The position numbers and the translations under genes were made by a program. 41,355 nucleotides of DNA. Origin: Parcubacteria group bacterium. GTDB taxonomy: Bacteria > Patescibacteriota > Minisyncoccia > Phycocordibacterales > DATDWN01. Below, piece by piece: positions 16,437 to 30,009 of the stretch. Each line of letters begins with the position of its first letter. The stretch's first letter is position 1. The stretch lies in the NCBI GenBank assembly GCA_046599035.1, contig JBKJHK010000003.1, forward strand, positions 1 to 41,355, written 5' to 3'. The notes beneath the pieces were generated by a model that had not been told where the DNA came from, did not search any database, and saw nothing but the letters and a program-made list of their open reading frames with translations.

Positions 16437-17006
16437 TTATGTATGTGAAGTTAAGTTACCTACTGTCGAGAGTTTTCGTTTTGAAAAATAAAAGTAAACC
16501 ATAAAACTTACTATTGCTGCGAAAAAACACCAGACAGACACAAATGAAACCGAATAAAACCAGTATGCTGTGAGTGCCGAAAAAAATACTAGAACTCCGA
16601 AAATATTGATTATCTTTTTACTAGAGAAGAAACAACTAAGAATAGTTGCTGAAAAATAAAATCCTAATACCCAATAACCATAGAAATGTGAATTATTATA
16701 GGCAATGCTTTTATTAATTATTTCCGAAGTAACTAGAGATAGCGTATGAGAATAGAGAAGGTATCCTCCGACTACGATCCCAATAAGCTGAAATACGTAC
16801 AAGACTTTTTTCCGCCAAGGCTCTGTTTCTAGTGATCCTATTGCAAACGGAACAAAAATCGACCATACCACAAATGCAAACAATGAGAATGCATAGATCA
16901 TTACTGCATTGAGTATTGTGGAATGCCAACTAAATGAGAGCCAGACGAACCCTTCAATCAGTTGCTGGATACCAAAAAGCAGTGGGATCATTGCTGAGAA
17001 ACACAT
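16437..17006 (-). CDS. hypothetical polytopic membrane protein
   Basis: About 190 aa from ATG 17006 (MCFSAMIPLLFGIQQLIEGFVWLS) with 5-6 TM segments. The longer track ORF would overlap the DUF2933 gene. Confidence 0.6.
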   Translation of the reverse strand: MCFSAMIPLLFGIQQLIEGFVWLSFSWHSTILNAVMIYAFSLFAFVVWSIFVPFAIGSLETEPWRKKVLYVFQLIGIVVGGYLLYSHTLSLVTSEIINKSIAYNNSHFYGYWVLGFYFSATILSCFFSSKKIINIFGVLVFFSALTAYWFYSVSFVSVWCFFAAIVSFMVYFYFSKRKLSTVGNLTSHT

Positions 17007-17010
17007 ACTA

Positions 17011-17238
17011 TTATTTGTGAATGGAAGTAGAATCTCTTTCCATTTTATTATTCGTATCCTTAGAATCGTGTGAAATGCCATGTTTTCCATGTATAAATAA
17101 GTGCATGAAAAGACAACCGAATAGAAATGTAAAAGGTAAGTACGGAAATACATGCTGTCCATGATCGATCACAAGATATATTCCAATGACCACAAGAGAG
17201 ACAATGAGTACCCAACGTATTGTGTTGTTATTTTCCAT
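17011..17238 (-). CDS. DUF2933-like small membrane protein
   Basis: MENNNTIRWVLIVSLVVIGIYLV...FLFGCLFMHLFIHGKHG. The C.LMHLFMHG-type motif is typical of DUF2933 proteins found in metal-resistance loci. Confidence 0.7.
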   Translation of the reverse strand: MENNNTIRWVLIVSLVVIGIYLVIDHGQHVFPYLPFTFLFGCLFMHLFIHGKHGISHDSKDTNNKMERDSTSIHK

Positions 17239-17254
17239 AATTTTAAGCTCGTTA

Positions 17255-17476
17255 TTAAACAATCTCACCCTTCTTTTCGAGCATTATGTGGTGCATAGTA
17301 CTTACCGTAAACCAAATAGCGATAAGCATCAAAAGGCCAGAACAAAATAGCCAATGCTCTCGTGTGACACCTCACACAAGCGCATCTTCACTCATCGTTG
17401 CTCCTACAATAGCGGAAACAATACCGGCAAACCCAACAACCATACTTAAGATGTGCAAAGTTTTTGAGATTTTCAT
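17255..17476 (-). pseudogene. small two-TM ORF interrupted by one in-frame UGA (pseudogene or recoding candidate)
   Basis: Codon-by-codon hand translation gives MKISKTLHILSMVVGFAGIVSAIVGATMSEDALV*GVTREHWLFCSGLLMLIAIWFTVSTMHHIMLEKKGEIV. The UGA lies at 17372-17374, inside a 9-bp hairpin. Confidence 0.5.
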
Positions 17477-17485
17477 AGTGCTTTT

Positions 17486-17767
17486 TTATTTATTTGATAA
17501 TGTGTAAATTCTAATTAATTCTTTAATGGCTTTCTCGTCTTCACCTTTAGTTTGCATTTTATTCTTTACGTGAGTACGAAGATGATTCTCTAAAAGAAAG
17601 CTCTCGAGGCTTTTCAATGATCTTTCAATAGAACGAGATTGCTCCAACAGGGTTGGGCAATACTCTTCTTTTTCAATAGCTTTAGTGAGACCATCGACTT
17701 GACCTCGAATTATCTTTGCTCGATGGATAGCTCTACTTTTTAGTTTTTGGTCTACTGGAGAGTGCAT
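17486..17767 (-). CDS. CsoR/RcnR-family metalloregulator with an RcnR-type H-C-H-H ligand fingerprint
   Basis: 93 aa with His2, Cys37 (EEYCPTLL), His62 and His66 (ENHLRTH). The C-to-H spacing of 25 and the H-to-H spacing of 4 match RcnR. Confidence 0.9.
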   Translation of the reverse strand: MHSPVDQKLKSRAIHRAKIIRGQVDGLTKAIEKEEYCPTLLEQSRSIERSLKSLESFLLENHLRTHVKNKMQTKGEDEKAIKELIRIYTLSNK

Positions 17768-17941: not shown

Positions 17942-20900
17942 TCAATTGATATTATCACTCTTGTGTAGAACTCCACGAATCCATTTGCGAGCACGAATGA
18001 ACATATCAGGATGCATACCGACAAAATAGAATACCGCAGGAGTTAAGAATATTGAGATAATAGTAGATGACACGAGTCCACCAAATATCACAACTGCGAG
18101 TGGGTGGAGTAATTCTTTACCCGGCTCTTCTGCTGCTAACATAAGAGGAATGAGGGCGAGAGCGGTAACCATAGATGTCATGAGTACTGGCACCAGTCTG
18201 TCTATCGTTGCTTCGACTACAACCTCTTTTGTAAGTTTACCAGCTTCTCTTACTTTACTTAGGCATCGTTCGATCAACAATATTCCATTACGAGACACGA
18301 TACCCGCAAGAGATATGAATCCAACAGTATGGGCGAGATTGATCACTCCCCCAGTTAGCCAGATAGCAATAATTCCACCAATAAAAACAGTTGGGATGTT
18401 CAACATGATCTGTAGTACAATTGGAATTTTTCGAAAGGCATAGAACAATATTCCAAAAATTAAACCGAGTGCAATGACAAACATCAATGCGAGACGAGTA
18501 CTATTTTCCTTTTGACTTTTGTATGTCCCTTCGTAGGATATAGCAATACCCGTTTTCAACTGTTTTGTATCCATTATCTTTTTTACATTTTCAACTGCAC
18601 CAACAATATCCTTACCTTGATAATTTGCAGTGACATTCATTACTCGTTTACCTCCTTCATGACTATATTTATTGCGACCACCCTCTATTCTGATATCCCC
18701 AGCATCAGAAAGCGTATCGACTGATTCGATTGGTAACGATAAATCACGGAGTGCAGTAGCGCTACCTTTTGAATTCTGATCAAACCGAAGCACTACATTA
18801 ATACGAGCACCTTCTTTCTGAACTTGACCAATTTCTTTCCCAAGTAAGCCCTCTTCGAGGGCATCGGCGACACGAGCGACAGAGACACCGTTTTCACCAA
18901 GTCTATTAGTATCGAGATAAATTCTAAATTCAGGGACAATCACCTCTTTTTGAATTTGAGGATTTTTTACACCATCTTGCTTTGCTAATTCGACCTTGAT
19001 GGTTTCGGCAGTTTCTTTCATCGCCCCTAGATCATCACCGAATACTTTCATGACAATAGGCGCTCTTACCCCGGACAGAGATTCTTCTACTTTATGCGTA
19101 ATTGGTTTTCCAAGCCCATAATCAGCACCTTTATAGAGGTCTAAAATCCCCTGTATCTCTTTCGACAAATCGTCTATTTTATTTTCGAGTCCAGGTTCAA
19201 AGATTACTTGTATCTCGCTCGTATTTGCACCACTATCATGAGGATCGGCCCCGGCACGCCCAGTGATATGGCTTACACGCGCAACACCTTCAATGTTTCC
19301 TATTTCTTTTTCTAAAATAGACGCAAAGGTATTTGAGGTATTGAGATCTGTTCCCGTAGGAAGCGTGACCGAGATAACAAGTGAGTTTTCATTAAATGGC
19401 GGAATACCTTCTTTTCCTGCAAACGAATAGAGTCCGACTGCGACAATAAGGGAGATTAATACTCCCAAACTAAGCTTCTTTATGTTATTGATGCTCCAGT
19501 AGATATGTGGGGTTATTTTTGTTTTTAACCATACGACCAGTTTTGTTTCACCTCGTTCGTTTGCCTCTATATTTTTTAATAGCAGTGCCGATAACGCTGG
19601 TGTAAGAGTGAGTGAAACTATAAGCGATGCAACGAGAGATATCAGATACGCAATACCGATTGAGGAAAGTAGCTTACCTTCGACATCTGGGATAAAGAAT
19701 ACTGGTAAGAAAACCACAACAACCAGTAATGTTGCATAGACGATTGAATTTCTGACTTCGACTGAAGCATTGAATATGACATCCTTAAATGGGGTGCTGA
19801 GTCCTTTATTCTTCCACTCTGTTAACCGATGGTGGATATTTTCTACATCAACAATAGCATCATCCACGAGCTCGCCGATAGCGATGGCAATACCACCGAG
19901 GGTCATTACATTAACCGACACTCCTATAAACTTAAATATGATTGCGCTGACTAGAATTGATACTGGAATAGCTGTGAGTGTAATGAGTGTAATTCTCCAT
20001 CTCATGAGAAAGAGTGAAACAATCAATATCACAAGCAGAATACCTTCAGCAAGGGCTTTTTTTACATTACTAAGTCCAGAATCAATAAACCACTGTTGAC
20101 GGAAAAGATCATTTTGAATTTTAACACCTGTAGGCAAGCTTTTACCGATTGTTACAAGCGCTTCATCTACCGACGTCGTAACTTTTAGTGTTTCTGCATC
20201 AGGTTGACGAGAAATACGCATGATTACACCAGGCTTCCCGTCTATCGTCGCAGCTCCACGAACAAGACTCGGACCTTCAATGATTGCTGCTACGTCCGCA
20301 AGCCTGACAGTTCCTCCAGCTTTATCTTTTCCGACTACTACATTTTGTAGATCTGCAATTTCTCGAGGTGCAACCATAATACGGATTGGATACTCTTTAT
20401 TTTTCTCAACCAGAAGACCTCCACTTTTATTATTAAGTATAGGCTCAAGTGAACCTGCAATATCTTCGACACCTATACCTAGACTTTTCATCGCAGTGGC
20501 ATTCATTTGAATCTGCCATTCCTTTACATCTCCACCTAAGACGATGATGTCAGATACTCCGGTTACACGCAGTAGTGCTGGACGTACCGTCCAATCAGCA
20601 AGCGTACGCAAATCCATACCTGACATATTTGGATCGTCCGATGTTACTCCGATCCACATTACTTCACCTAAAATTGACCCCACAGGACCCAACACCGGTC
20701 GAGCGCCGTTTGGCAACTCTAATCGTGATAGTCGCTCTTGGATAATTTGTCTATTGCGAAAAATATCCGAACCCCATTCAAATTCTGCATTTACAATTGC
20801 AAGCCCAAATGAAGCAGTGCTGCGAACACGGGTCACACCAGGAGCTCCTGATACAGCAGACTCCACAGGAAAAAGTATCAGTTTTTCTACATCTTCAGCA

Positions 20901-21070
20901 GACATACCTTCACCTTCAGTAAATATAGCAACAGTAGGTTTATTAATGTCTGGAAGGACATCAACCTTCATAGTGCTAAAGCTCCAAATACCTCCTATAA
21001 CGACGATAAGTGACAGTAAAACTACGATTCCTGTATGGTCGAGGGACCATTTGATTATTTTATTGAACAT
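17942..21070 (-). CDS. RND efflux pump, heavy-metal-efflux (HME) family, CusA-like
   Basis: 1042 aa with 12-TM RND architecture. The TM4 signature GGIAIAIGELVDDAIVDVENIHHRL closely resembles the CusA [25 protein letters not shown] segment as I recall it. Confidence 0.95.
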   Translation of the reverse strand: MFNKIIKWSLDHTGIVVLLSLIVVIGGIWSFSTMKVDVLPDINKPTVAIFTEGEGMSAEDVEKLILFPVESAVSGAPGVTRVRSTASFGLAIVNAEFEWGSDIFRNRQIIQERLSRLELPNGARPVLGPVGSILGEVMWIGVTSDDPNMSGMDLRTLADWTVRPALLRVTGVSDIIVLGGDVKEWQIQMNATAMKSLGIGVEDIAGSLEPILNNKSGGLLVEKNKEYPIRIMVAPREIADLQNVVVGKDKAGGTVRLADVAAIIEGPSLVRGAATIDGKPGVIMRISRQPDAETLKVTTSVDEALVTIGKSLPTGVKIQNDLFRQQWFIDSGLSNVKKALAEGILLVILIVSLFLMRWRITLITLTAIPVSILVSAIIFKFIGVSVNVMTLGGIAIAIGELVDDAIVDVENIHHRLTEWKNKGLSTPFKDVIFNASVEVRNSIVYATLLVVVVFLPVFFIPDVEGKLLSSIGIAYLISLVASLIVSLTLTPALSALLLKNIEANERGETKLVVWLKTKITPHIYWSINNIKKLSLGVLISLIVAVGLYSFAGKEGIPPFNENSLVISVTLPTGTDLNTSNTFASILEKEIGNIEGVARVSHITGRAGADPHDSGANTSEIQVIFEPGLENKIDDLSKEIQGILDLYKGADYGLGKPITHKVEESLSGVRAPIVMKVFGDDLGAMKETAETIKVELAKQDGVKNPQIQKEVIVPEFRIYLDTNRLGENGVSVARVADALEEGLLGKEIGQVQKEGARINVVLRFDQNSKGSATALRDLSLPIESVDTLSDAGDIRIEGGRNKYSHEGGKRVMNVTANYQGKDIVGAVENVKKIMDTKQLKTGIAISYEGTYKSQKENSTRLALMFVIALGLIFGILFYAFRKIPIVLQIMLNIPTVFIGGIIAIWLTGGVINLAHTVGFISLAGIVSRNGILLIERCLSKVREAGKLTKEVVVEATIDRLVPVLMTSMVTALALIPLMLAAEEPGKELLHPLAVVIFGGLVSSTIISIFLTPAVFYFVGMHPDMFIRARKWIRGVLHKSDNIN

Positions 21071-21078
21071 ATTATATC

Positions 21079-22803
21079 CTATTCATCATGACCGTGAGGC
21101 TGGCTTTCGTCTTGGACTTCTGTTTTTTTCTCTGATGGAACTATTTGTGGGGTAGCATTGTCTGTCGCTTTTACTTGCATACCATCTTTCATATCAGAAA
21201 TCGGACGAGTTACGATACGATCACCATCTATTAATCCTGTAGTGATTTCGACTGTATCACCAAATGTTCTCCCTGCAGTTATTTCTTTTGATAGCAACTT
21301 ATTTTCTGCTGTCACTGTCCACACACGAGTTTCACCCTCATCACTCCAGAAAATTGCAGTGAAAGGTACTACTGCTGTTGTAGCACCTGTATTACTTGGT
21401 ATGACTCGAACAGATGCATGTACAGGCCAGTCTGTAGGTTCGGTAAATTGTGCATCTGCCATGTATGAGCCGTTTGTATCGAGTGATACACCTACGCCAA
21501 TAACTTTAATTTTAATCTTAGTATCCAAGAATCCCGGACGAACCACAGTGAGCATATCGCCAGATTTTGGGGCGATTGCATTGCTTGGAATGCGGAACCG
21601 TATCAATTTTTCCTTATTGCTCGTTCCATTTATTGAAGCGAGTGTGTCTTCGGGTCGTACAAATTCTCCAACTCGCTTTGCAATAGTTGAAATAGTCCCA
21701 CTTCGTGTTGCCACTATTTCTAAACCTCCTGTGAGGCCACCTACCACACTGTTATACGAAGCTTGTTTTGCTATTACTTCTGCATTAGCTAGTGCAAGAT
21801 CTTTTTCAAGCTGAATGATTTCTGCATCAATCTCTTGGTTCTTAGCCACGATATCTTGATTTTTCCCGGCAATTTCTTGAATCTTTACGTCATTATCTAC
21901 AAGCGATTCTTTGTATTCTTTCAATGTAGTAACAAATTCTTGTTGTTCAGTCGTAACAACAGACTTAAGATTAGCAAGTACCGTTGAGTCCAAGTCTCCG
22001 TCTGTTATTGTTTCTGAGAGAAGTTTTACTGTTGCATCAAAATATGCAAGTCCGCTTACCTCAGGAACAAGCTCCTTGTTACTTAGATCTTTTAAGGCTT
22101 GGTGAATTTTTTCAGGATAGCTGTTTCTACTTGAACCGAAAAAACCTACATTCCATCTCAAATTAACTAAGGAATTTATGTTTGGGTATCCACTATTTGC
22201 TGAAATTGTGGGATATATTTTTGATATTGATCCTTGGAGCACTATCTGAACGTTACTCTTTTTTGTTTGAGTAAGAGAGTTAGTGTTACTTCCAAGATTG
22301 GAAGTGGAATAAGAATTTTTTAGATTAGAATAGGAATCTTTTAACGAGTTTAATTGTTCTATTTTCTTTTGATTGAATACTATGGTTGCTTGGGCCTGTG
22401 CTTTTGCGCGCACAAGCTCTTCTGACTCTGAAGCTATAGCTTGGACGATATCTGCTGTTTTTGGTGGAGCAGAAAGCTTACCCAAGGCTTGACCTTGGTA
22501 TACTTTTTGTCCGATTTTCACATTCCACTCTGCAATTGTTCCTTCACGCTTTGGTTGGACGTTTACATCATTGGCTGAGAGTATTTCTCCAGACCACGAA
22601 ACACCAGAGCCGATATCGAGAGTGTTTTCAGGTGTAGTTGTTTGTCCGATCGTTAGTACGGATACTTTCGGATAATTATTTTCATCGGATAGTAGATGTG
22701 TTTGTATAGTATCCTTACTTGAAATTTTTTTATATCCAATAGCGCCTCCCACGATAAGCACAGCTACAAGTACACCTATAATAAGAAGTTTGTTTTCTTT
22801 CAT
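21079..22803 (-). CDS. RND/MFP periplasmic adaptor subunit (HlyD-like), oversized, with a His-rich C-terminal tail
   Basis: 574 aa with an N-terminal TM segment, a lipoyl-like motif (GQKVYQGQALGKLSAP), a very long Ser/Asn- and coiled-coil-rich insert, C-terminal beta-barrel segments and the tail QDESQPHGHDE. Confidence 0.85.
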   Translation of the reverse strand: MKENKLLIIGVLVAVLIVGGAIGYKKISSKDTIQTHLLSDENNYPKVSVLTIGQTTTPENTLDIGSGVSWSGEILSANDVNVQPKREGTIAEWNVKIGQKVYQGQALGKLSAPPKTADIVQAIASESEELVRAKAQAQATIVFNQKKIEQLNSLKDSYSNLKNSYSTSNLGSNTNSLTQTKKSNVQIVLQGSISKIYPTISANSGYPNINSLVNLRWNVGFFGSSRNSYPEKIHQALKDLSNKELVPEVSGLAYFDATVKLLSETITDGDLDSTVLANLKSVVTTEQQEFVTTLKEYKESLVDNDVKIQEIAGKNQDIVAKNQEIDAEIIQLEKDLALANAEVIAKQASYNSVVGGLTGGLEIVATRSGTISTIAKRVGEFVRPEDTLASINGTSNKEKLIRFRIPSNAIAPKSGDMLTVVRPGFLDTKIKIKVIGVGVSLDTNGSYMADAQFTEPTDWPVHASVRVIPSNTGATTAVVPFTAIFWSDEGETRVWTVTAENKLLSKEITAGRTFGDTVEITTGLIDGDRIVTRPISDMKDGMQVKATDNATPQIVPSEKKTEVQDESQPHGHDE

Positions 22804-22827
22804 AGGTAATAAATATTGGTCTAGTAA

Positions 22828-23007
22828 TTACTCGTCATGTCCATGTGGCTGGCTCTCATCTTGGATAGGGGTATGCTCACCCGTAGTTTCATGAGTATGA
22901 TCTGTGTGACCATCTGATGCAGGATTAGTTCCCGGTCTTAAGATAAAAAATGCAGCACCAATTGCAAGGATAATGAGAACAGAAACAATAATAAGATTCT
23001 TTTTCAT
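22828..23007 (-). CDS. 59-aa membrane-anchored His-rich peptide
   Basis: Below the track cutoff. Hand translation is MKKNLIIVSVLIILAIGAAFFILRPGTNPASDGHTDHTHETTGEHTPIQDESQPHGHDE. The last 11 aa are identical to the adaptor C-terminus. Confidence 0.65.
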   Translation of the reverse strand: MKKNLIIVSVLIILAIGAAFFILRPGTNPASDGHTDHTHETTGEHTPIQDESQPHGHDE

Positions 23008-23082: not shown

Positions 23083-23457
23083 TTAAAACGACTTAGAGTT
23101 AAGAATGCCTCTTGAAAAAAGTAATGTGTATAGATTAAATAATCGAGGTGGTGAGCCTTCGGTGAGAGAAGATAGCTTTTGTGTTCGTTTCAACAGTAAA
23201 GATAGACTAATGACGGAGTTGGCAAAAAAACCAGACATCATTAGTACAAGGATAAATCCTAACTGTGTGTTATTTCTTGCTGTTGTAGTAAATGTAGATT
23301 CATGACATTCAACTGTCGATGATTCGTAATCATCGACTTTTTGACTATGTGCGTTGAATTCTAATGAGTTACAGGAAGATAACAAGAAAACAAACGAAAC
23401 CAAAATAGTTATCGGAAAAATTAAACTTAATATTAATTTTTTATGGTTTATAAACAT
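23083..23457 (-). CDS. hypothetical protein with a lipoprotein-type signal (LLSSC)
   Basis: 124 aa with an N-terminal signal and lipobox-like LLSSCNS, plus one more hydrophobic segment. No family recognised. Confidence 0.45.
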   Translation of the reverse strand: MFINHKKLILSLIFPITILVSFVFLLSSCNSLEFNAHSQKVDDYESSTVECHESTFTTTARNNTQLGFILVLMMSGFFANSVISLSLLLKRTQKLSSLTEGSPPRLFNLYTLLFSRGILNSKSF

Positions 23458-23491: not shown

Positions 23492-23962
23492 TCAAATACT
23501 TAAAGAATTTAGTTTTGCTTTCATCTGATCAATTTGTGATTGCTGGCTTGAGAGAATATCTTTACATAATTCTTTTAATTCAGAATCCTCTACAGGTGCT
23601 TTTTCGCACATAAGAATTGCACTGGCGTGGTGAGTAATCATCGATTTTAAAAACTGTCTATCCGAAATACCGGTTTGCTGTCTGATTAAAGTAAGAAAAA
23701 TAATTAATAGTAGGACGCTACTGGCAATTATAAAGGTATTCCATTTTTTGTTATAATACATAGCCCTCATAACAAAAAGCTCAATAATCACCATTGGAGC
23801 TGTCATCAAGCCTGCCATATAAAACTGGTTATAATTAATCAAAACATTGGCAAATGTGTTAACCATTGCATACATAAAAACAAACATTGATATAAACGAC
23901 AGTATAACCATAACGAGCAAATTACGATACTGCTTACTATTCATTGAATTTTCCATTTCCAT
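23492..23962 (-). CDS. DUF305 domain membrane protein
   Basis: 156 aa with three TM segments followed by FLKSMITHHASAILM, a DUF305 HH motif. Confidence 0.8.
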   Translation of the reverse strand: MEMENSMNSKQYRNLLVMVILSFISMFVFMYAMVNTFANVLINYNQFYMAGLMTAPMVIIELFVMRAMYYNKKWNTFIIASSVLLLIIFLTLIRQQTGISDRQFLKSMITHHASAILMCEKAPVEDSELKELCKDILSSQQSQIDQMKAKLNSLSI

Positions 23963-23997: not shown

Positions 23998-24339
23998 TTA
24001 AAGGAAATATACTGCTAGGGCACTGCACCCGAATAAAAGTCCAATATCTCGATAGACTTCATGAAACTCATGTCTACTTGAAACTACAAGAACACCTAAA
24101 AGATGTGTAGCCGCTAATACTGCAGCTATACCGGTAAAATAACCACTTATAAGCCACGCTCCAATAAAGAGATCTCCTACTGCTGTCCCGAGCATGAAAG
24201 ATCTGGCAGACAAAAGATATCTAGAAAACCATTTCGGCAACATGTGGGTCCACTTATCTTTATCTTTTAGAATCAAAACACCTGTTAGAACAAAAGTTAT
24301 TCCGAGACCGATTCTTAAAATAAGTATTGGGAGTTCCAT
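23998..24339 (-). CDS. small 4-TM membrane protein, DoxX-like
   Basis: 113 aa. The topology and the N-terminal LRIGLGITFVLTG pattern resemble the DoxX family. The assignment is tentative. Confidence 0.5.
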   Translation of the reverse strand: MELPILILRIGLGITFVLTGVLILKDKDKWTHMLPKWFSRYLLSARSFMLGTAVGDLFIGAWLISGYFTGIAAVLAATHLLGVLVVSSRHEFHEVYRDIGLLFGCSALAVYFL

Positions 24340-24345
24340 ATTATT

Positions 24346-25281
24346 TTAATGCATCATTGCTCCTCCTGATTGATTCGTTTGTCCCTTAGCCACATTTACC
24401 ACAAAGTCAGAGGTAATAATATTTCCTTCGTGTTGGAACTGCGAGAAAAGTTTATAATTTCCGGCTTCAGGAAACGTAATCTCGAAGTTAACTTTTCCTG
24501 TTTGAATATCAGTAAGCTTTTGGGTTGCATGAGCATGAATGAACTGAAGATCACTTTCTCGCAGAACAACAGTGTGTCCAAGCGCCCCTAAATACTTTTC
24601 TAGATTTGTGACAGATTTTCCGTCTTTTTTAATTTCAAAGTCAAATCCTGTTGATTTTCCTGATTCGATAGAAGGCAGGGCTGAAACTAAGCTAACCTGA
24701 TACCTGTCAAATATTTTACTCGTAGTGGTGTCTCCAATGGATTGTGGTTTGTAATTTGCCTGACTTCCTACTCTTATGTCTTCGGATATAATAACTGGTA
24801 ACTTAGTGCCATTTTGGTCCATTTGACTTGTGGTTGGAGTAAAGTCTGCAAAAATGCGGTAATCTCCATCGGATGGTAGAGTGAGGTCGGAAAAAGCAAA
24901 TTCTCCTGTTGTTTGATTAAATTCCGGATGTACATGCTGGAAGTTAGCAAGGTCTTTTCGGACAATTATAAAATGCATACGTTTCTCATGGACAACATCA
25001 AGATTTTTTAAAGTATTTCCTTGATCGTCAATAATTGAGTATGTGAAGCTCGTAGGAGTATTGGGTGCAAAGCTTTTTATATCAGCATTAGATTTTATGC
25101 AATAGCTTCTGTGACTTTGGATTGGCATCGTATCAATCAGTGTGCCACCTGACGAACAATAAACCTTGCCCTGATCTTTAGTGAAGACTTGTGGATTTTT
25201 ATCCGACTTATTTAAAGTAAATATTCCCCCTGCGACTATAACTACTACTAAGATAATTCCTATAAGTATTTTTTTGTTCAT
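24346..25281 (-). CDS. secreted or anchored protein with two His-motif beta-sandwich-like modules (putative metal binding)
   Basis: 311 aa with an N-terminal TM/signal segment. The repeated motifs MHFIIVRKDLANFQHVHPE and LQFIHAHAT are each followed by a GDY/GNYK.F beta-strand pattern. Confidence 0.6.
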   Translation of the reverse strand: MNKKILIGIILVVVIVAGGIFTLNKSDKNPQVFTKDQGKVYCSSGGTLIDTMPIQSHRSYCIKSNADIKSFAPNTPTSFTYSIIDDQGNTLKNLDVVHEKRMHFIIVRKDLANFQHVHPEFNQTTGEFAFSDLTLPSDGDYRIFADFTPTTSQMDQNGTKLPVIISEDIRVGSQANYKPQSIGDTTTSKIFDRYQVSLVSALPSIESGKSTGFDFEIKKDGKSVTNLEKYLGALGHTVVLRESDLQFIHAHATQKLTDIQTGKVNFEITFPEAGNYKLFSQFQHEGNIITSDFVVNVAKGQTNQSGGAMMH

Positions 25282-25292
25282 GTAATTATAGT

Positions 25293-25682
25293 TTAGTTTT
25301 TAAATTCAACTTCAAACGGGTACATCCCCATCCCACAGGTCCCCTCTAGAGTAGCTACTTTTTGTGTACCAATATCAATATCAGTCGAGCCAGTTTGCGG
25401 AAGCACCTGGCTTATATCCATGCTCGGAATACGGACCGATGAGGAACAGTCGAATGTTCCGCTCGTATCGAATCGTATGACTGTAGGAATGCCTGCGCGA
25501 GCGATGCTCTTTCGTGGCTCGTATCCGCTTTTAGCATTAATGGTGATGATCTGTTTTCCATCGACGATAACAACATTATTTACATTTACCACCGGCTCTG
25601 TGCTTCCAGCATTTTTTGTAAGCATAAAAGCTCCTCCAATGAGAACGCCTGCTACAATTATTGATATAATGGTTGATTTCAT
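25293..25682 (-). CDS. cupredoxin-like small secreted protein with a C...CGMGM motif
   Basis: 129 aa with an N-terminal TM segment. The pattern GYEPRKSIARAGIPTVIRFDT...FDCSSSVRIP...GTCGMGMYPFEVEF is seen in cupredoxin-type proteins encoded beside HMA/TauE genes. Confidence 0.65.
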   Translation of the reverse strand: MKSTIISIIVAGVLIGGAFMLTKNAGSTEPVVNVNNVVIVDGKQIITINAKSGYEPRKSIARAGIPTVIRFDTSGTFDCSSSVRIPSMDISQVLPQTGSTDIDIGTQKVATLEGTCGMGMYPFEVEFKN

Positions 25683-26184: not shown

Positions 26185-27234
26185 CTAGAAATTAAACAAG
26201 GGTGGAATAACCCCAATCACCACCAAACTATTCAAAAGATTGAATAGTGCAAACATAATCACCACAAGTCCTGCAGTCTTGAAGAAAACTCCCGACTTTG
26301 AACTGTTTTGAATACTGAATGAACTGAAGCTCAGGAGTGCAAGTACAGGAAATGTTCCTAGGGCAAATGCAAGCATGGTGAGACCTCCAGTGATAAAGCT
26401 CCCTGTACTTAAGGCATAGAGTTGCATTGACTGAGTAAACCCGCACGGCAAGAAGAACGTAGCGACACCCACAAGTAGTGGCGTGAGTACGTGATTCAAT
26501 TTACTTACACCGAGTGCGTGTTTTGAGAGAAATTTTGGCATACTCGGCTCTAGTTTTTTTACCCATGGAAAAACATCGAGAAGATTTATACCCAGAATAA
26601 GCATGACGATGCCAATAATGAGGCTCAGTACAAAAGTTCCTGAGGTGTTTAATGTAAAGGCTGATCCGATTGCTCCGATAATCCCCCCAAGAATAAAAAA
26701 TGAAACTATTCGACCAGCATGGAACATAAGCTGGGGCTTTATTTTATCACCTCCTTTCGCAAAGGTGGCCGACATTGAAAGGAGAAGACCTCCGACCACA
26801 GCCATGCAGGTCGAAAGTGAAGCAATGATACCAATCGTAAATGCCGTGCCGTACGTGACATTTCCCCCTCCAACCAAGTTAACAAGACCGATCTTTTGAA
26901 GGACAATAAACAAAACTGCAAATCCAACTGCAATCGGAACTGCAATGTTAAAATCAGACCACTTATTTTCCCCACTATTATTTTCTTTTTTTATAGAGAC
27001 AGTGTAGCCATAAGGTTTGAGCGGTATAGTTAACTCTTCTGCAATCTGCTCCTGTGTTTTGTCGCCAAAGTCACCACTTACTTCCACCGAATGATTTTCG
27101 AGGTTTGATGTTGCGTGAGTAATATAAGGTAAGTCTTTCAACTCACTTTCAGTCATGAAGACACATGCATTACAATGCATGCCGTGAACATGGAAGGTAT
27201 ACCTCTGCAAATTATTTTTATTGTTGGTAATCAT
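26185..27234 (-). CDS. HMA domain fused to a TauE/SafE-like (sulfite-exporter family) membrane domain
   Basis: 349 aa with an N-terminal HMA domain (VHGMHCNAC) and then about 7 TM segments carrying Gly-rich motifs and a conserved Cys (SLSTCMAVVGG). Confidence 0.85.
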   Translation of the reverse strand: MITNNKNNLQRYTFHVHGMHCNACVFMTESELKDLPYITHATSNLENHSVEVSGDFGDKTQEQIAEELTIPLKPYGYTVSIKKENNSGENKWSDFNIAVPIAVGFAVLFIVLQKIGLVNLVGGGNVTYGTAFTIGIIASLSTCMAVVGGLLLSMSATFAKGGDKIKPQLMFHAGRIVSFFILGGIIGAIGSAFTLNTSGTFVLSLIIGIVMLILGINLLDVFPWVKKLEPSMPKFLSKHALGVSKLNHVLTPLLVGVATFFLPCGFTQSMQLYALSTGSFITGGLTMLAFALGTFPVLALLSFSSFSIQNSSKSGVFFKTAGLVVIMFALFNLLNSLVVIGVIPPLFNF

Positions 27235-27251
27235 AATAATTATTCTATTTG

Positions 27252-29549
27252 TTATAGTGACTTAGCCTTAATTCGAAGTGAATTCGACACGACCGACACA
27301 CTTGATAATGCCATCGCTAATCCTGCAAACACCGGATTGAGGAGCCAACCAAAGATCGGGTAAAATATCCCTGCCGCAAGAGGAATACCTACGATGTTGT
27401 AGATAAATGCCCAAAAGAGATTTTGCTTAATACCTCGCATGGTCATTTTCGATAGCTTTATCGCCTTCACCAATTTTGAAATGTCACCACCAAGAAGCGT
27501 AATACCCGCCGATTCTATTGCAACGTCAGTTCCTGTACCCATCGCAATACCTACGTCCGCCTGTGCAAGCGCCGGAGCGTCATTTACACCATCCCCTGCC
27601 ATTGCTACGATTCTTCCCTGTGACTGCAGCTCTTTAATTTTTTCTAGTTTATCTTGTGGTAAGACATGAGCCACGACGTCAGTAATACCGACCAGGGACC
27701 CAATATATTTTGCGGTCTTTTCATCATCACCAGTAAGCATCACTACTTTAATCCCGAGGGCATGGAGATCTTTCACTGCCTCGACTGATTCTTCTTTTAT
27801 CGGGTCAGACACCATTACAAAACCGAGGACTTTTTCTTTAGTTGCGAGAATAACAGGGGTCTTACCTTGCAACGTAAATTCATGTAACGTTTCAGCATCA
27901 AAAGAAATATTGAGATCATGTATAAGTTTTGTATTACCGACAAAATATTCTACACCATTAACTCTGCCCTTAAGTCCTTTACCTTGCATACCTTCAAAAT
28001 TCGAGATTTCTGATACGGGAATATTTTTCTCCTCTGCGTAACTTACAATTGCATGAGCGATCGGATGCTCGGACTTCTTTTCAAGTGAGGCGAGTATTGA
28101 TACTAATTCTTCGTTTTTCTCACCTGATAGACTAACTATGTCTACAAGCGTCGGCTTCCCTTTTGTAATCGTACCTGTCTTGTCCACCACTACCGTATCT
28201 ACCTTGTGAAGTTTCTCAAGTGTAGCTGCGTCCTTTATTAAAATACCCTCTTTTGCTCCTTTGCCGACTCCGACAATGATAGCTGTTGGTGTTGCCAGTC
28301 CAAGTGCACACGGACAAGCAATAACAAGGACTCCGACAAATGAAACAAGGCCATATGAGAGTGCTTGCGAGAATCCAAGTGCAGGAGTTCCAAAGAATAA
28401 CCATGCTCCGAGTGAAAGAACTGCAATGACAAGTACGATAGGAACAAATACTGACGATATTTTATCTGCCAGTGCTTGGATCGGGGCACGACTTCCTTGG
28501 GCTTCTTCCACCATTTTTATGATCGAAGCGAGCAGTGTTTCAGACCCGACTTTAGTTGCTTTGAAAATGAATGCTCCGTTTGTATTAATTGTTCCCGCAA
28601 CAACAGAGTCTCCTATGTTCTTCTGGGCAGGCATTGGTTCACCAGTCACCATTGATTCATCTACAAACGATGAGCCTTCACTTACGACGCCATCAACCGG
28701 AATTTTCGCACCTGGTTTTATGATAATCAAATCTCCATGCTTCACTTCATGTACAGATATTTCTACTTCTTTTCTATCACGCATTACGAGTGCAGTTTTT
28801 GCCTGTAAGTTGAGAAGTTTTTCAATAGCGTCCCCTGTCTTTATTTTTGATCGAGCTTCCAAATATTTACCAAGCGCAATAAAGGTGATGACCACAATCG
28901 TAACGTCGTAGTAGGTGTGATCCACGTTTATAAACGGACGAAGTGATTCTTCAAAAGCTGTGATAACAAAACTATACACGTACGCTGCGACTGTTCCGAT
29001 ACCAATGAGCGTGTCCATGTTGGCCTTGCCATAACGGAGAAAGCGATAGAAACCAAGAAGGTACGGCTTACCCACCACGAAAAGCATGTATGTCGCCATA
29101 AGAGGTAGCAGGTGGTGGACAAACTCATACACAGTGGTGCTCATTTCTGAAACAGCACCATATTCCGCCAAAATATCCCAAGTCATAATAACTATACTGA
29201 AAATTGCGAGCGGTATAGCTGATACCACCAATGTCTTTTGACTTGCTACTTCAGCGAGCTTTTCCTTCTTTGATTGATTCAAGCCAAGATGCCCTCTGTG
29301 CTCATCTGCAGTCATCCCCATCTCCTCTGCAGTCTGCCCCATAATAAGAGAATACCCTAATGGTTCGATTTTTTTCGAAAGGTGGTGTGGGTTTGTTTTC
29401 GATTCATCGAAAGACACCTGAGCGGTTTCCGTACCGTAGTTAACCTCTGCGGATTCTACACCGTCAGTTTTCCTGAACGTCTTCTCAATGATACTTGCAC
29501 AGGAAGCGCAATGCATTCCTTTTATGTGATATGTTTTAGATGTATTCAT
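27252..29549 (-). CDS. copA: Cu(I)-translocating P1B-1 ATPase
   Basis: 765 aa with an N-terminal HMA domain (GMHCASCAS), the TM motif CPCALGLATP, DKTGTIT, GDGVNDAPAL, YN(x)4P and MALSSVSV. Confidence 0.95.
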   Translation of the reverse strand: MNTSKTYHIKGMHCASCASIIEKTFRKTDGVESAEVNYGTETAQVSFDESKTNPHHLSKKIEPLGYSLIMGQTAEEMGMTADEHRGHLGLNQSKKEKLAEVASQKTLVVSAIPLAIFSIVIMTWDILAEYGAVSEMSTTVYEFVHHLLPLMATYMLFVVGKPYLLGFYRFLRYGKANMDTLIGIGTVAAYVYSFVITAFEESLRPFINVDHTYYDVTIVVITFIALGKYLEARSKIKTGDAIEKLLNLQAKTALVMRDRKEVEISVHEVKHGDLIIIKPGAKIPVDGVVSEGSSFVDESMVTGEPMPAQKNIGDSVVAGTINTNGAFIFKATKVGSETLLASIIKMVEEAQGSRAPIQALADKISSVFVPIVLVIAVLSLGAWLFFGTPALGFSQALSYGLVSFVGVLVIACPCALGLATPTAIIVGVGKGAKEGILIKDAATLEKLHKVDTVVVDKTGTITKGKPTLVDIVSLSGEKNEELVSILASLEKKSEHPIAHAIVSYAEEKNIPVSEISNFEGMQGKGLKGRVNGVEYFVGNTKLIHDLNISFDAETLHEFTLQGKTPVILATKEKVLGFVMVSDPIKEESVEAVKDLHALGIKVVMLTGDDEKTAKYIGSLVGITDVVAHVLPQDKLEKIKELQSQGRIVAMAGDGVNDAPALAQADVGIAMGTGTDVAIESAGITLLGGDISKLVKAIKLSKMTMRGIKQNLFWAFIYNIVGIPLAAGIFYPIFGWLLNPVFAGLAMALSSVSVVSNSLRIKAKSL

Positions 29550-29553
29550 AAAA

Positions 29554-29817
29554 TTACTTTCGCTTAAGGCGATATACTTTTAATATTTCATCAATCGGTT
29601 TCTTTTGCTCTCCTTTCTTTATCTGGCTTATAACACAGGTACTCAAATGATTCTCCATCAGTGCATCCTCTATACCTGAAAGAGCCTGCTTGACTGCCGA
29701 TGTCTGAGTAATCACATCAATGCAGTATGCATTTTTTTCTATCATGTCCTGCAGTCCACGTACCTGCCCTTCTATAATCTTGAGTCGCCGAATTAATTTA
29801 GTTTTATGTTCGTTCAT
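29554..29817 (-). CDS. csoR: copper-sensing repressor CsoR (x-C-H-C fingerprint)
   Basis: 87 aa from ATG 29817 (MNEHKTKLIRRLKIIEGQVRGL) with Cys32, His57 and Cys61. The longer track ORF would read through the operator. Confidence 0.92.
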   Translation of the reverse strand: MNEHKTKLIRRLKIIEGQVRGLQDMIEKNAYCIDVITQTSAVKQALSGIEDALMENHLSTCVISQIKKGEQKKPIDEILKVYRLKRK

Positions 29818-29818
29818 A

Positions 29819-29853
29819 GACCCATTATACCCCCATGGGGTATAATGGGTCAA
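29819..29853. promoter_or_regulatory. CsoR operator (perfect 15-3-15 palindrome) overlapping the csoR-copA promoter
   Basis: GACCCATTATACCCC-CAT-GGGGTATAATGGGTC (29819-29851) contains the ATACCCC/GGGGTAT core. On the minus strand, TTGACC (29848-29853), an 18-nt spacer and TATAAT (29824-29829) lie only 6 nt before the ATG. Confidence 0.75.
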
Positions 29854-30009
29854 CTGATTTTGTGTTAATCCTCTAGACTGCAATCATACTGAGTTAGAAC
29901 TAAAAAATCCTTACTAATTAATAATTTTTAGTTGAATTTTATTCTCGGTGCCACATTAGAAGATGTTAGAACTGTGCTTGAGAGAAAAAATGCTATGCCA
30001 ATTTCATAC

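What the first reader, a model, noticed from the sequence alone, without database searches (positions are those of the whole stretch)
21079..23007. His-rich 59-aa peptide and the RND adaptor share an identical C-terminal tail kept by synonymous-only divergence
- An unannotated 59-aa ORF (22828-23007, one TM segment, His-rich ectodomain DGHTDHTHETTGEHTP) ends with QDESQPHGHDE.
- The adaptor encoded immediately downstream (21079-22803) ends with the same 11 residues.
- At the DNA level, 7 of the 11 codons differ (GAG/GAA, GAC/GAT, GGA/GGT, CAT/CAC, CCA/CCT, GAG/GAA, GAT/GAC), and every difference is synonymous.
- This pattern argues for purifying selection on the peptide rather than a recent duplication.
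- Inference: the tail may be a shared metal-binding or docking tag. The small protein could be a membrane-tethered functional analogue of the periplasmic chaperone CusF that hands metal to the pump.
Basis: seen in the sequence. Interest (0 to 1): 0.68.

Follow-up and report, generated by a model that had tools for sequence, protein, structure and literature searches.

The report
Mini-protein sharing the adaptor's metal tail
A 59-residue, membrane-anchored, histidine-rich mini-protein encoded just upstream of a metal-efflux pump's adaptor ends in the same 11 residues as the adaptor; selection has kept that end-piece, and comparison with related genomes indicates it is a metal-binding tag matched to the pump's own metal site.

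Summary
ORF 22828-23007(-) and the RND adaptor 21079-22803(-) both end in QDESQPHGHDE. Seven of the 11 codons differ and all seven differences are synonymous (saturated; P<5e-6 by chance).

The small ORF is a genuine gene:
- At least 12 distinct homologues of 44-60 aa lie directly upstream of the adaptor gene (or at a contig end where one would follow) in related Patescibacteria contigs.
- dN/dS is about 0.11, the same as for the adaptor.

The tail is a conserved island (dN 0.03) at the end of a fast-evolving, disordered adaptor linker (dN 0.54).

Across the adaptor family, the C-terminal tail is either His-type or Met-type. Tail type matches the pump residue aligned with CusA M672 in 25 of 25 loci: Glu with His tails, Met with Met or mixed tails. 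This points to a metal-binding tail rather than a pure docking tag, and to a divalent-cation pump here.

The mini-protein's N-terminal module (anchor plus DGHTDHTHE) and its tail also occur at the two ends of a YtkA-like protein in sister genomes. The gene is absent from several relatives, so it is accessory.

Most likely role: a tethered metal-capture and hand-off peptide, analogous to CusF or SilE. This is untested.

The parts
22828..23007 (-). Small ORF of 59 aa: N-in membrane anchor, a His-rich disordered outer segment, and a tail identical to the adaptor's.
   Evidence: Searches give the sequence. Searches give homologues of 44-60 aa. One search gives dN/dS of about 0.11 against L001. predicts a helix at residues 3-23 followed by coil. 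Searches find no Pfam or NCBIfam family.
22939..23001 (-). Hydrophobic anchor (KNLIIVSVLIILAIGAAFFIL, residues 3-23). Cleavage as a signal peptide is not excluded.
   Evidence: The first 40 residues, anchor included, are about 75% identical (30 of 40, my count from the alignment) to the N-terminus of the YtkA-like protein in L028.
22888..22914 (-). DGHTDHTHE His motif (residues 32-40).
   Evidence: It is repeated 2-3 times in the small proteins of L007 and L050. It is absent from the small proteins of L046, L047 and L049. It is also found at the N-terminus of YtkA-like proteins in L028, L034 and L035.
22831..22863 (-). Tail QDESQPHGHDE of the small protein (residues 49-59).
   Evidence: Residues Q49-S52, P54, H55, H57 and D58 are invariant across 8 small-protein sequences.
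21079..22803 (-). RND periplasmic-adaptor (membrane fusion protein) homologue of 574 aa, with an N-terminal TM anchor and a very long helical hairpin.
   Evidence: Searches give HlyD_3 and TIGR01730 hits. One search gives the AlphaFold model. One search gives Foldseek matches to AcrA, MexA, MacA, ZneB and CusB at E values down to 6e-18.
21082..21114 (-). Tail QDESQPHGHDE of the adaptor (residues 564-574).
   Evidence: The motif DES[QK]PH[GS]HDE is kept in the 8 closest adaptor clusters and in two at 37-38% identity. Tail dN is 0.03. pLDDT is 32-37, i.e. disordered.
21115..21156 (-). [quoted passage not shown]
   Evidence: One search gives pLDDT below 50 from residue 550. One search gives dN 0.54 for codons -41 to -13.
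17942..21070 (-). Heavy-metal-type RND permease of 1042 aa. It starts 9 nt after the adaptor's stop codon.
   Evidence: One search gives ACR_tran at 1.8e-220. One search gives TIGR00914 CusA/CzcA at 620 bits. One search gives ZneA as the best solved relative, followed by CusA.
19082..19084 (-). Codon for Glu663 of the pump, in the column aligned with CusA Met672 of the Cu(I) triad. The residue here tracks the adaptor's tail chemistry.
   Evidence: The column is E in 19 of 19 pumps with His-tail adaptors and M in 6 of 6 with Met or mixed tails.
23083..23457 (-). Conserved 124-aa two-TM Cys/His protein ending ...FSRGILNSKSF, probably the first gene of the operon.
   Evidence: Searches show homologues upstream of the adaptor in most loci. 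Searches find no family. One search finds a promoter-like site just upstream, at 23495-23467.
24346..25281 (-). YtkA-like outer-face protein of 311 aa. This copy lacks the DGHTDH N-terminus and the DESxPH tail and ends GGAMMH. It is a paralogue of the protein that carries both modules in sister genomes.
   Evidence: One search gives weak YtkA hits. Searches give homologues, 608 at E<=0.001, whose C-termini are Met/His-rich among the 120 listed. One search gives 29% identity to the L028 protein.
17486..17767 (-). CsoR/RcnR-family metal-sensing repressor downstream of the pump gene.
   Evidence: One search gives Trns_repr_metal at 2.7e-17. One search gives weak FrmR, RicR and RcnR hits.

Best explanation
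**What it is**
- The small ORF encodes a real, single-pass (N-in) membrane-anchored mini-protein. About 35 disordered, His/Asp/Glu-rich residues lie on the outer face of the membrane.
- It is built from two short modules that also decorate the other outer-face proteins of this Patescibacteria metal-efflux system:
  - an anchor plus DGHTDHTHE motif, also the N-terminus of a YtkA-like protein in sister genomes;
  - the DES[QK]PHxHDE end-tag, also the C-terminus of the RND adaptor and, in shortened form, of the YtkA-like protein.

**What the end-tag does (comparative inference)**
- It is a metal-binding tail. On the adaptor it hangs on a flexible linker from the membrane-proximal domain, next to the pump's entry cleft.
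- Its ligand chemistry (His plus carboxylate) matches the carboxylate at the pump's cleft site (Glu663, the CusA Met672 position).
- This points to a divalent cation (Zn, Co, Ni, Cd or Cu(II)) as substrate.

**Proposed mechanism (inferred, not shown)**
- The mini-protein captures metal at the membrane surface.
- It exchanges the metal with the chemically identical adaptor tail, in the way metallochaperones exchange with like motifs on their targets.
- The adaptor tail feeds the pump cleft or switches the pump on.

**Other points**
- The gene is accessory: some relatives lack it.
- In some genomes that lack it, the YtkA-like protein next to the adaptor carries one or both modules.
- Its likely origin is an in-frame loss of the globular core of a YtkA-like gene copy, or module shuffling. 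This is inference.
For: **The shared tail is selected at the peptide level**
- Identical tail with 7 of 7 synonymous differences; P<5e-6 by simulation.
- Synonymous sites are saturated between all copies, so there has been no recent gene conversion.

**The small ORF is a real gene**
- At least 12 distinct homologues of 44-60 aa, all intact, lying directly upstream of the adaptor gene or at a contig end. In L031 and L044 they overlap the adaptor start.
- dN/dS of 0.11/0.97 against 0.11/0.85 for the adaptor.

**The tail is the conserved element**
- The small proteins of L046, L047 and L049 keep only the anchor and the tail.
- Adaptor tail dN is 0.03 against 0.54 for the linker.
- The tail and linker are disordered.

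**The tail chemistry is metal chemistry**
- Adaptor homologues end in DESxPHxHDE, GDGHGHxHDE or GDGHDHEH, or in MGGMQM, MRAMGM or MPGMEM.
- The pump motif QPITH[RK]xE[E/M]LLSG has E with His tails (19/19) and M with Met or mixed tails (6/6). This includes two pumps (L033, L016) whose remaining class-specific columns mostly follow the other group.
- That column is Met672 of CusA's Cu(I) triad (PMC8092243).
- In the alignment it falls on ZneA D658.

**Modules are shared with the YtkA-like protein**
- 32 of 50 identities to the L028 N-terminus.
- L035 carries both DGHTDHTHD and DESKPHGH*.
- L038 carries TDESKPH....

**Parallel in Met-type loci**
- A roughly 108-aa anchored Met-rich protein lies just downstream of the pump gene in L020-L022.

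**Precedents**
- The CusB N-terminal tail receives Cu from CusF. The disordered His/Met C-terminal tail of SilB binds Ag and interplays with disordered SilE (PMC8686694, PMC10407283).
Against: - No experiment or expression data exist. Metal binding, transfer and topology are all inferred.
- Non-ligand residues (Q, S, P) in the tail are as conserved as the His and Asp/Glu residues. This suggests recognition by a partner as well as, or instead of, simple chelation.
- The small ORF is missing from L025, L028, L033, L038 and L043 although their adaptors keep the tail.
- In L007 the small protein lacks the tail while the adaptor has it.
- Residue-level covariation between paired tails within the clade is not significant (P=0.13).
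- The His/Met classes of pump are largely two clades, so the 25/25 association rests on few independent events. At least L033 and L016 look independent.
- The anchor could be a cleaved signal peptide, which would make the peptide soluble.
Confidence: 0.55

Rival explanations
1. The tail is mainly a docking epitope, possibly metal-dependent, recognised by a site on the pump or on another partner. The mini-protein would then be a tail mimic that competes with, or substitutes for, the adaptor's tail, acting as a regulator or decoy rather than a metal carrier.
For: - Non-ligand positions Q, S and P of QDESQPH are invariant or nearly so in both proteins.
- The tail is the one element kept in the shortest small proteins.
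- Tail architecture changes together in one side clade: both proteins end ...PH[DE]H* in L047.
Against: - The tail switches wholesale to Met-rich sequences in other adaptors, together with a ligand residue in the pump cleft. That is what metal chemistry predicts, not a peptide-binding groove.
- Paired tails within the clade do not covary significantly.
- No partner site has been identified.
Confidence: 0.2
2. The mini-protein is a passive, membrane-tethered metal buffer, or 'sponge' (in the manner of SilE or PcoE). It lowers free metal at the membrane surface without passing it to the pump. The shared tail reflects only the same metal preference.
For: - Three His clusters lie within 30 disordered residues.
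- Variants with 2-3 DGHTDH repeats and no adaptor-type tail exist in L007 and L050.
- The gene is accessory.
Against: - A one-to-few-site peptide made at operon stoichiometry has little buffering capacity.
- It is strictly placed directly upstream of the adaptor gene and overlaps it in L031 and L044.
- The minimal forms keep only the adaptor-type tail.
Confidence: 0.15
3. The small ORF is a non-functional remnant, left by deletion within a duplicated YtkA-like or adaptor gene. It happens to stay open, and the match reflects recent duplication or gene conversion.
For: - Both halves of the ORF have obvious donors in neighbouring genes.
- The ORF is absent from several relatives.
- There is no Shine-Dalgarno motif before it.
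Against: - dN/dS is about 0.11 with dS of about 1.
- At least 12 intact variants exist with only in-frame length changes.
- Synonymous saturation between the two tails excludes recent copying.
- Most genes of this window lack a Shine-Dalgarno motif.
Confidence: 0.04

Closest known systems
CusF metallochaperone and the N-terminal Met tail of CusB (E. coli CusCFBA)
   Same: - A small accessory protein is encoded next to the adaptor of a heavy-metal RND pump.
- The adaptor carries a flexible terminal tail, emerging from the membrane-proximal domain, with the same ligand type as the accessory protein. Metal passes between them (PMC6235853, PMC8686694 introduction).
   Different: - CusF is a soluble OB-fold protein with a Met2His/Trp site for Cu(I)/Ag(I).
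- The protein here is a 59-aa anchored, disordered peptide with His and carboxylate ligands and no Met. It has no family hit and no beta fold.
- The adaptor tail is C-terminal, not N-terminal.
- Accessory and adaptor share an identical linear motif rather than only the ligand type.
SilE and the C-terminal disordered tail of SilB (Salmonella Sil system)
   Same: - A disordered His/Met C-terminal tail of the adaptor binds metal.
- A separate disordered His/Met-rich protein of the same operon competes or cooperates with it (PMC8686694, PMC10407283).
- This is the nearest published parallel to 'adaptor C-tail plus disordered accessory'.
   Different: - SilE is soluble, about 140 aa, has HxxM/MxxH motifs and folds on Ag binding.
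- It shares no sequence motif with SilB.
- The system here has an anchored peptide with tail identity, and probably handles a divalent metal.
SilB of Cupriavidus metallidurans, with a C-terminal CusF-like domain
   Same: The adaptor's C-terminus carries the same metal-binding module as the free-standing accessory protein of the system (Bersch et al. 2011, cited in PMC10407283 and PMC8686694).
   Different: That module is a folded OB domain. Here it is an 11-residue linear motif on a disordered linker.
CzcI
   Same: A small protein encoded next to a divalent-metal RND operon, proposed to chaperone metal to the adaptor CzcB (PMC10393844).
   Different: CzcI is a soluble periplasmic protein. No sequence similarity was detected, and it shares no tail with CzcB.
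AcrZ (49-aa single-TM partner of AcrB)
   Same: A micro-protein with one TM helix acting with an RND pump (from my own knowledge; AcrABZ structures appear among the hits).
   Different: - AcrZ has no metal-binding ectodomain and acts through its TM helix and cytoplasmic tail.
- No similarity was detected.
- Binding of the present peptide to the pump is untested.

Membership tests
RND periplasmic adaptor / membrane fusion protein (applied to 21079-22803) | Lipoyl, beta-barrel and membrane-proximal domains with an alpha-hairpin, detectable by family profiles. | tested here: met
   - HlyD_3 at 1.6e-7, above its cut-off.
- TIGR01730 at 3.8e-26: 91.8 bits against a cut-off of 94.9.
- Precomputed RND-MFP_C and YknX_C families on the homologues.
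RND periplasmic adaptor / membrane fusion protein (applied to 21079-22803) | Fold equivalent to solved adaptors. | tested here: met
   The AlphaFold model has mean pLDDT 78. Foldseek matches AcrA, MexA, MacA, ZneB and CusB with E values from 6e-18 to 4e-10 at probability 1.00.
RND periplasmic adaptor / membrane fusion protein (applied to 21079-22803) | Encoded next to its inner-membrane transporter. | tested here: met
   The RND permease gene starts 9 nt after the adaptor's stop codon. The same order is seen in 26 loci.
Tripartite (adaptor, RND, outer-membrane factor) efflux system | A TolC/CusC-type outer-membrane factor. | tested here: inconclusive
   None was found among the roughly 25 window ORFs scanned or among the called genes of related loci. 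The host is a Patescibacteria-type organism. The rest of the genome was not available.
CusA-type Cu(I)/Ag(I) RND pump (applied to 17942-21070) | Periplasmic-cleft methionine triad M573/M623/M672. | tested here: not met
   The aligned residues are S, T and E in the window pump. The triad is defined in PMC8092243.
Heavy-metal-efflux RND (CusA/CzcA, TIGR00914) | Profile score above the curated cut-off, and the TM4 acidic motif. | tested here: inconclusive
   - 620 bits against a cut-off of 701.
- TM4 reads AIGELVDDAIVDVEN, keeping the Asp and Glu of the proton relay.
- The best solved relatives are ZneA at 9e-115 and CusA at 5e-104.
CusF family (applied to the small ORF) | OB-fold beta-barrel with a Met/Met/His(/Trp) site, detectable by profile. 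| tested here: not met
   There is no Pfam or NCBIfam hit. The model is one helix plus coil. The sequence has no Met after residue 1.
SilE/PcoE family (applied to the small ORF) | Soluble disordered periplasmic protein with repeated HxxM/MxxH motifs. | tested here: not met
   There is no family hit. The protein has no Met-containing motifs and has an N-terminal hydrophobic anchor.
AcrZ-like RND-binding micro-protein (applied to the small ORF) | The TM helix binds a groove of the RND transmembrane domain. | not testable with these tools
   No multimer prediction was possible, and there is no sequence similarity.
YtkA-like domain proteins (applied to 24346-25281 and the L028/L035 proteins) | PF13115 YtkA-like domain. 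| tested here: inconclusive
   The window protein gives E=0.0018, at 19.3 bits against a cut-off of 25.9. Many homologues carry a precomputed PF13115 hit.

The most novel reading that the evidence does not exclude
The mini-protein is a new kind of RND-pump micro-subunit that works by molecular mimicry: a free-standing, membrane-tethered copy of the adaptor's C-terminal tail. It would dock, in a metal-dependent way, at the same site on the pump's entry cleft as the adaptor tail, either delivering metal or gating the pump. More broadly, Patescibacteria heavy-metal pumps would use interchangeable C-terminal 'ligand tails' on adaptors as specificity elements, co-evolving with a single cleft residue (the CusA-672 position).
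Probability: 0.2. Interest if true: 0.75.

Novelty: new variant of a known kind. Interest (0 to 1): 0.58.

Why it matters
- **An open mechanistic question becomes testable.** How adaptors and accessory proteins pass metals to heavy-metal RND pumps is still debated for Cus, Sil and Czc (funnel versus switch).
  - This system reduces the question to an 11-residue tail present on both partners, plus one matching residue in the pump cleft.
  - That gives simple swaps to try: His tail to Met tail, and Glu663 to Met.
- **An unnamed micro-protein family.** It has no Pfam or NCBIfam family. A full profile search of 1.84 billion representative proteins found only 7 matches.
- **Adaptor tails as a predictor.** The C-terminal tails of Patescibacteria adaptors can be read as predictors of metal class.
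- **Pumps without an outer membrane factor.** The system bears on how RND pumps work in organisms where no outer-membrane factor is evident.

Tried and rejected
- **Recent duplication or gene conversion as the cause of the identity: rejected.** The two tails differ at 7, 6 and 9 of 33 nt within genomes, as much as between genomes.
- **Residue-by-residue covariation of paired tails (G/G, S/S, K/K looked promising): not upheld.** With 6 pairs in the clade, P=0.13. L042 and L046 break the Q/K match. Over all 9 pairs P=0.014, but this is not corrected for phylogeny.
- **'Mini-adaptor' origin (adaptor N-terminus plus adaptor tail): set aside.** The N-terminus matches the YtkA-like protein far better (32/50).
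- **Stop-codon read-through fusion with the adaptor: dismissed.** The small ORF and adaptor are in frame in the window (24-nt gap). They are out of frame in L001 (26-nt gap), and in L031 and L044 they overlap by 8 nt.
- **A tail-mimic small ORF upstream of Met-tail adaptors: none found.** A different anchored Met-rich protein lies downstream of the pump gene instead.
- **Metagenome scan with the small-protein motifs: limited yield.** Only 8 loci were recovered and none held a close small-ORF homologue, though it revealed the YtkA-like carriers of both modules.
- **Family searches on the small ORF and the 124-aa neighbour: nothing.** Pfam and NCBIfam gave no usable hit.
- **Literature searches for Patescibacteria/CPR RND pumps or adaptor C-terminal metal tails: nothing specific**.
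- **ZneA ligand list: could not be read.** PMC3832018 is not held, so the identity of D654 and D658 as Zn ligands rests on my memory of Pak et al. 2013.
Full report
**1.

On the minus strand, ORF 22828-23007 encodes MKKNLIIVSVLIILAIGAAFFILRPGTNPASDGHTDHTHETTGEHTPIQDESQPHGHDE. ORF 21079-22803 encodes a 574-aa protein ending ...TEVQDESQPHGHDE.
- The last 11 residues are identical. Seven of the 11 codons differ, all synonymously, and the stop codons differ as well.
- None of 200,000 simulations with seven random substitutions preserved the peptide.
- No other pair among 443 six-frame open segments of at least 40 aa shares five or more C-terminal residues.
- With mostly two-fold degenerate codons, seven differences is about what full synonymous saturation gives. 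The two coding stretches are as different as they can be while encoding the same peptide.

**2. Context**

The window has 40% G+C. Related contigs are labelled Patescibacteria, Parcubacteria or Paceibacterota MAGs. The region is a metal-resistance island, all on the minus strand. Listed by coordinate:

| Coordinates | Gene product |
|---|---|
| 14286-16433 | P1B ATPase with a His-rich N-terminus |
| 16437-17162 | DUF6629 protein |
| 17011-17268 | DUF2933 protein |
| 17486-17767 | CsoR/RcnR-family repressor |
| 17942-21070 | Heavy-metal-type RND permease |
| 21079-22803 | Adaptor |
| 22828-23007 | Small ORF |
| 23083-23457 | Conserved 124-aa two-TM Cys/His protein |
| 23492-23962 | DUF305 protein |
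| 23998-24339 | DoxX protein |
| 24346-25281 | YtkA-like protein |
| 25293-25682 | Cupredoxin-like protein |
| 26185-27234 | HMA-DsbD-like protein |
| 27252-29549 | CopA |
| 29554-29883 | Second CsoR-type repressor |

- No terminator-like site lies on the minus strand between the 124-aa ORF, the small ORF and the adaptor. The only promoter-like sites lie upstream of or within the 124-aa ORF.
- Most genes here lack a Shine-Dalgarno motif, so its absence before the small ORF says nothing.

**3. The small ORF is a real gene**

- A word-indexed search of 5.8 billion proteins found six further clusters, all exactly 59 aa, at 61-80% identity.
- A full HMM scan of 1.84 billion representative proteins found only seven matches in all. 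These included shorter forms of 44-53 aa.
- Wherever enough flanking DNA exists, the gene lies directly upstream of the adaptor gene. This holds in L001, L031/32, L042, L044/45, L046, L047/48 and L050. In L031 and L044 it overlaps the adaptor start by 8 nt.
- Between the window and L001, the small ORF has dN 0.11 and dS 0.97. The adaptor has dN 0.11 and dS 0.85.
- AlphaFold predicts one helix (residues 3-23) followed by coil.
- No Pfam or NCBIfam family matches.

**4. The tail is the selected element**

- In the adaptor, the last 12 codons have dN 0.03, while the 29 codons before them have dN 0.54.
- In the adaptor model, residues 550-574 are disordered (pLDDT 32-37). They follow the last strand of the membrane-proximal domain.
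- The model matches AcrA, MexA, MacA, ZneB and CusB.
- The eight closest adaptor clusters, and two at only 37-38% identity, end in DES[QK]PH[GS]HDE.
- Among the small proteins, the tail is the only outer-face element kept in the minimal forms:
  - L046: ...VQDESKPHSHDQ
  - L049: ...KVQDESQPHSHDE
  - L047: ...VVDESQPHDH
  
  All three lack the DGHTDH motif.
- Synonymous sites are saturated between every pair of tail copies. Differences within genomes (7, 6 and 9 of 33 nt) are as large as between genomes.

**5. What the tail is**

Across the wider adaptor family the C-terminus comes in two chemistries:
- His type: DESxPHxHDE, GDGHGHxHDE, GDGHDHEH.
- Met type: MGGMQM, MRAMGM, MPGMEM.
- A few are mixed, for example GHEHMEGMQM.

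I extracted the pump encoded downstream of each adaptor and aligned 25 non-redundant pump sequences with E. coli CusA.
- In the conserved cleft motif QPITH[RK]xE[E/M]LLSG, the variable position aligns with CusA Met672. That residue belongs to the Cu(I)-binding triad M573/M623/M672 (PMC8092243).
- The position is Glu in all 19 pumps whose adaptor has a His tail. It is Met in all 6 with a Met or mixed tail.
- The CusA-573 position is S, G or N (once M, in L033) in His-tail pumps. It is M in 5 of the 6 Met or mixed-tail pumps and I in L016.
- Two pumps follow the tail at position 672 although most of their other class-specific columns go with the other group: L033 (His tail) and L016 (mixed tail).
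- In the phmmer alignment to ZneA, window Glu663 falls on ZneA D658 and window His659 on ZneA D654. I recall both as proximal-site Zn(II) ligands from Pak et al. 2013. I could not read that paper.
- The best solved relative of the pump is ZneA.
- TM4 reads AIGELVDDAIVDVEN.

Together these results indicate two things. The adaptor tail is a metal-ligand tail matched to the pump's entry site. The window's pump handles a harder, probably divalent, cation rather than Cu(I)/Ag(I). This is comparative inference, and the two classes are largely two clades.

**6. Where the mini-protein's parts come from**

- Its first 50 residues are 64% identical to the N-terminus of a 301-aa YtkA-like protein encoded directly upstream of the adaptor in L028. 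The first 40 residues are about 75% identical (30 of 40, my count from the alignment).
- A 321-aa homologue in L035 starts ...VASDGHTDHTHD and ends ...TIDESKPHGH*.
- The L038 homologue ends ...TDESKPHTDIVPHN, and its adaptor ends ...IQDESQPHDH*.
- The tail motif therefore marks three kinds of outer-face protein in this system. The mini-protein looks like the two ends of the YtkA-like protein without its globular core.
- In L031, L044 and L049 the order is YtkA-like gene, then small ORF, followed in L031 and L044 by the adaptor gene (the L049 contig ends after the small ORF). This fits duplication of the YtkA-like gene followed by in-frame loss of the core. Module shuffling cannot be excluded.
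- The window's own YtkA-like protein (24346-25281) belongs to a different subfamily with 608 homologues at E<=0.001; among the 120 listed the C-termini are Met/His-rich. It carries neither module.
- The small ORF is absent from L025-27, L028-30, L033, L038 and L043, whose adaptors keep the tail. In four of these five, a YtkA-like gene directly abuts the adaptor gene. In L028 it carries the DGHTDHTH module and in L038 a DESKPH-type tail. The distribution is loosely complementary, which is suggestive only.
- L007 and L050 have variants with two or three DGHTDH repeats and no DESxPH tail.
- Met-type loci L020-L022 have no such upstream ORF. They encode an anchored Met-rich protein of about 108 aa just after the pump gene. 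This is an analogous accessory with matching chemistry.

**7. Mechanism proposed**

Shown directly:
- Gene reality.
- Selection on the tail.
- Disorder of the tail.
- Position of the tail at the membrane-proximal end of the adaptor.
- The match between tail chemistry and the pump-cleft residue.

Inferred:
- The mini-protein sits N-in with its His-rich segment on the outer face.
- It binds the substrate metal and exchanges it with the identical tail on the adaptor.
- The adaptor tail then delivers the metal to the cleft around His659, Glu662 and Glu663, or activates the pump there.

Exchange between like motifs is how known metallochaperones work with their targets (CopZ and the CopA N-terminal domains; CusF and the CusB N-terminus). 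The closest published parallels are:
- the disordered His/Met C-terminal tail of Salmonella SilB and its interplay with disordered SilE (PMC8686694, PMC10407283);
- the CusF-like C-terminal domain of C. metallidurans SilB (Bersch 2011, cited there);
- CzcI as a proposed chaperone for CzcB (PMC10393844).

The conservation of non-ligand residues (Q, S, P) keeps a docking or decoy role open.

**8. Verdict**

- The selection argument is supported.
- The 'shared metal tag' reading is supported by new comparative evidence.
- The 'CusF analogue' reading is plausible in function but not in family membership.
- I found no description of this system in the literature available here.
- I rate it a new variant of a known kind: an accessory metal-handling partner of a heavy-metal RND pump.
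- It is of moderate to good interest. It offers a very small, swap-testable model for how adaptors and accessory proteins feed these pumps.

Noticed in passing
window 23083-23457 (-); homologues in L003, L004, L007, L018-L022, L025, L029, L031, L033, L044 and L050: A 120-160 aa protein with two TM segments, a Cys/His-rich loop (CNSLEF..H..ECH.S) and a conserved C-terminus (..LFSRGILNxK..). It is encoded upstream of the adaptor (or of the small ORF or YtkA-like gene) in nearly all loci of both tail types. No Pfam or NCBIfam family matches. It is probably a fourth conserved component of these pumps.
   Followed up: partly
L020 10631-10963, L021 6357-6680, L022 10703-11029: In loci whose adaptor has a Met-type or mixed tail, an anchored Met-rich protein of about 108 aa (for example ..MMQEQSVMIQKMGEMMKSGGMMMQEMG..) is encoded just downstream of the pump gene. 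It is a possible Cu(I) counterpart of the His-rich mini-protein.
   Followed up: partly
window 14286-16433 (-): The P1B-type ATPase has a His-rich N-terminus (MNHDHSQHNKEVAPTEHSGHEDH) and reads CPD at residues 354-356 (ACPDALGLATP), which by position looks like the conserved CPx motif (my judgement). From memory, the usual forms are CPC, CPH or SPC. Its metal specificity is unclear.
   Followed up: no
window 21079-22803 (-), residues 117-358 of the adaptor: The adaptor has an N-terminal TM anchor instead of a lipobox, and a helical hairpin region of about 240 residues, far longer than in AcrA or CusB. No outer-membrane factor gene was seen in the window or in related loci. How the pump's exit path is built in these organisms is open.
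   Followed up: partly
window 17486-17767 (-): The CsoR/RcnR-family repressor next to the pump has Cys37 and ..ENHLRTHV.. By my reading this puts His, not Cys, at the second thiolate position of the CsoR signature, and there is a His at residue 2. That pattern is RcnR-like rather than CsoR-like and would fit a non-Cu(I) effector. Regulators in some other loci (L016, L021) have Cys there.
   Followed up: no
window 24346-25281 (-) and its listed homologues (P0077-P0195): The YtkA-like proteins of this subfamily almost all end in short Met/His-rich tails (..GGAMMH, ..MPGMDHSMH, ..MEGMDH). Variable C-terminal ligand tails are thus a general feature of outer-face metal proteins in these genomes.
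   Followed up: partly
L047 975-1247 and 1274-2758 (also L048): In these contigs the adaptor is split into a 90-aa N-terminal ORF and a 494-aa ORF. This is either a frameshift or pseudogene, or an assembly error, seen in two independent runs. The upstream 44-aa small ORF is intact.
   Followed up: no
window 16437-17162 and 17011-17268 (-): The mechanically listed DUF6629 ORF overlaps the DUF2933 ORF by about 150 nt in another frame. The DUF6629 profile match starts at residue 57, so its true start is probably internal.
   Followed up: no
L039 332-967 and L036/L037 (high-GC actinobacterial-type contigs): The motif ASDGHTDHTHE also occurs just after the lipoprotein signal of DUF305-like proteins in unrelated high-GC bacteria. 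DGHTDHTH is therefore a recurrent outer-face metal motif and is not specific to this lineage.
   Followed up: no
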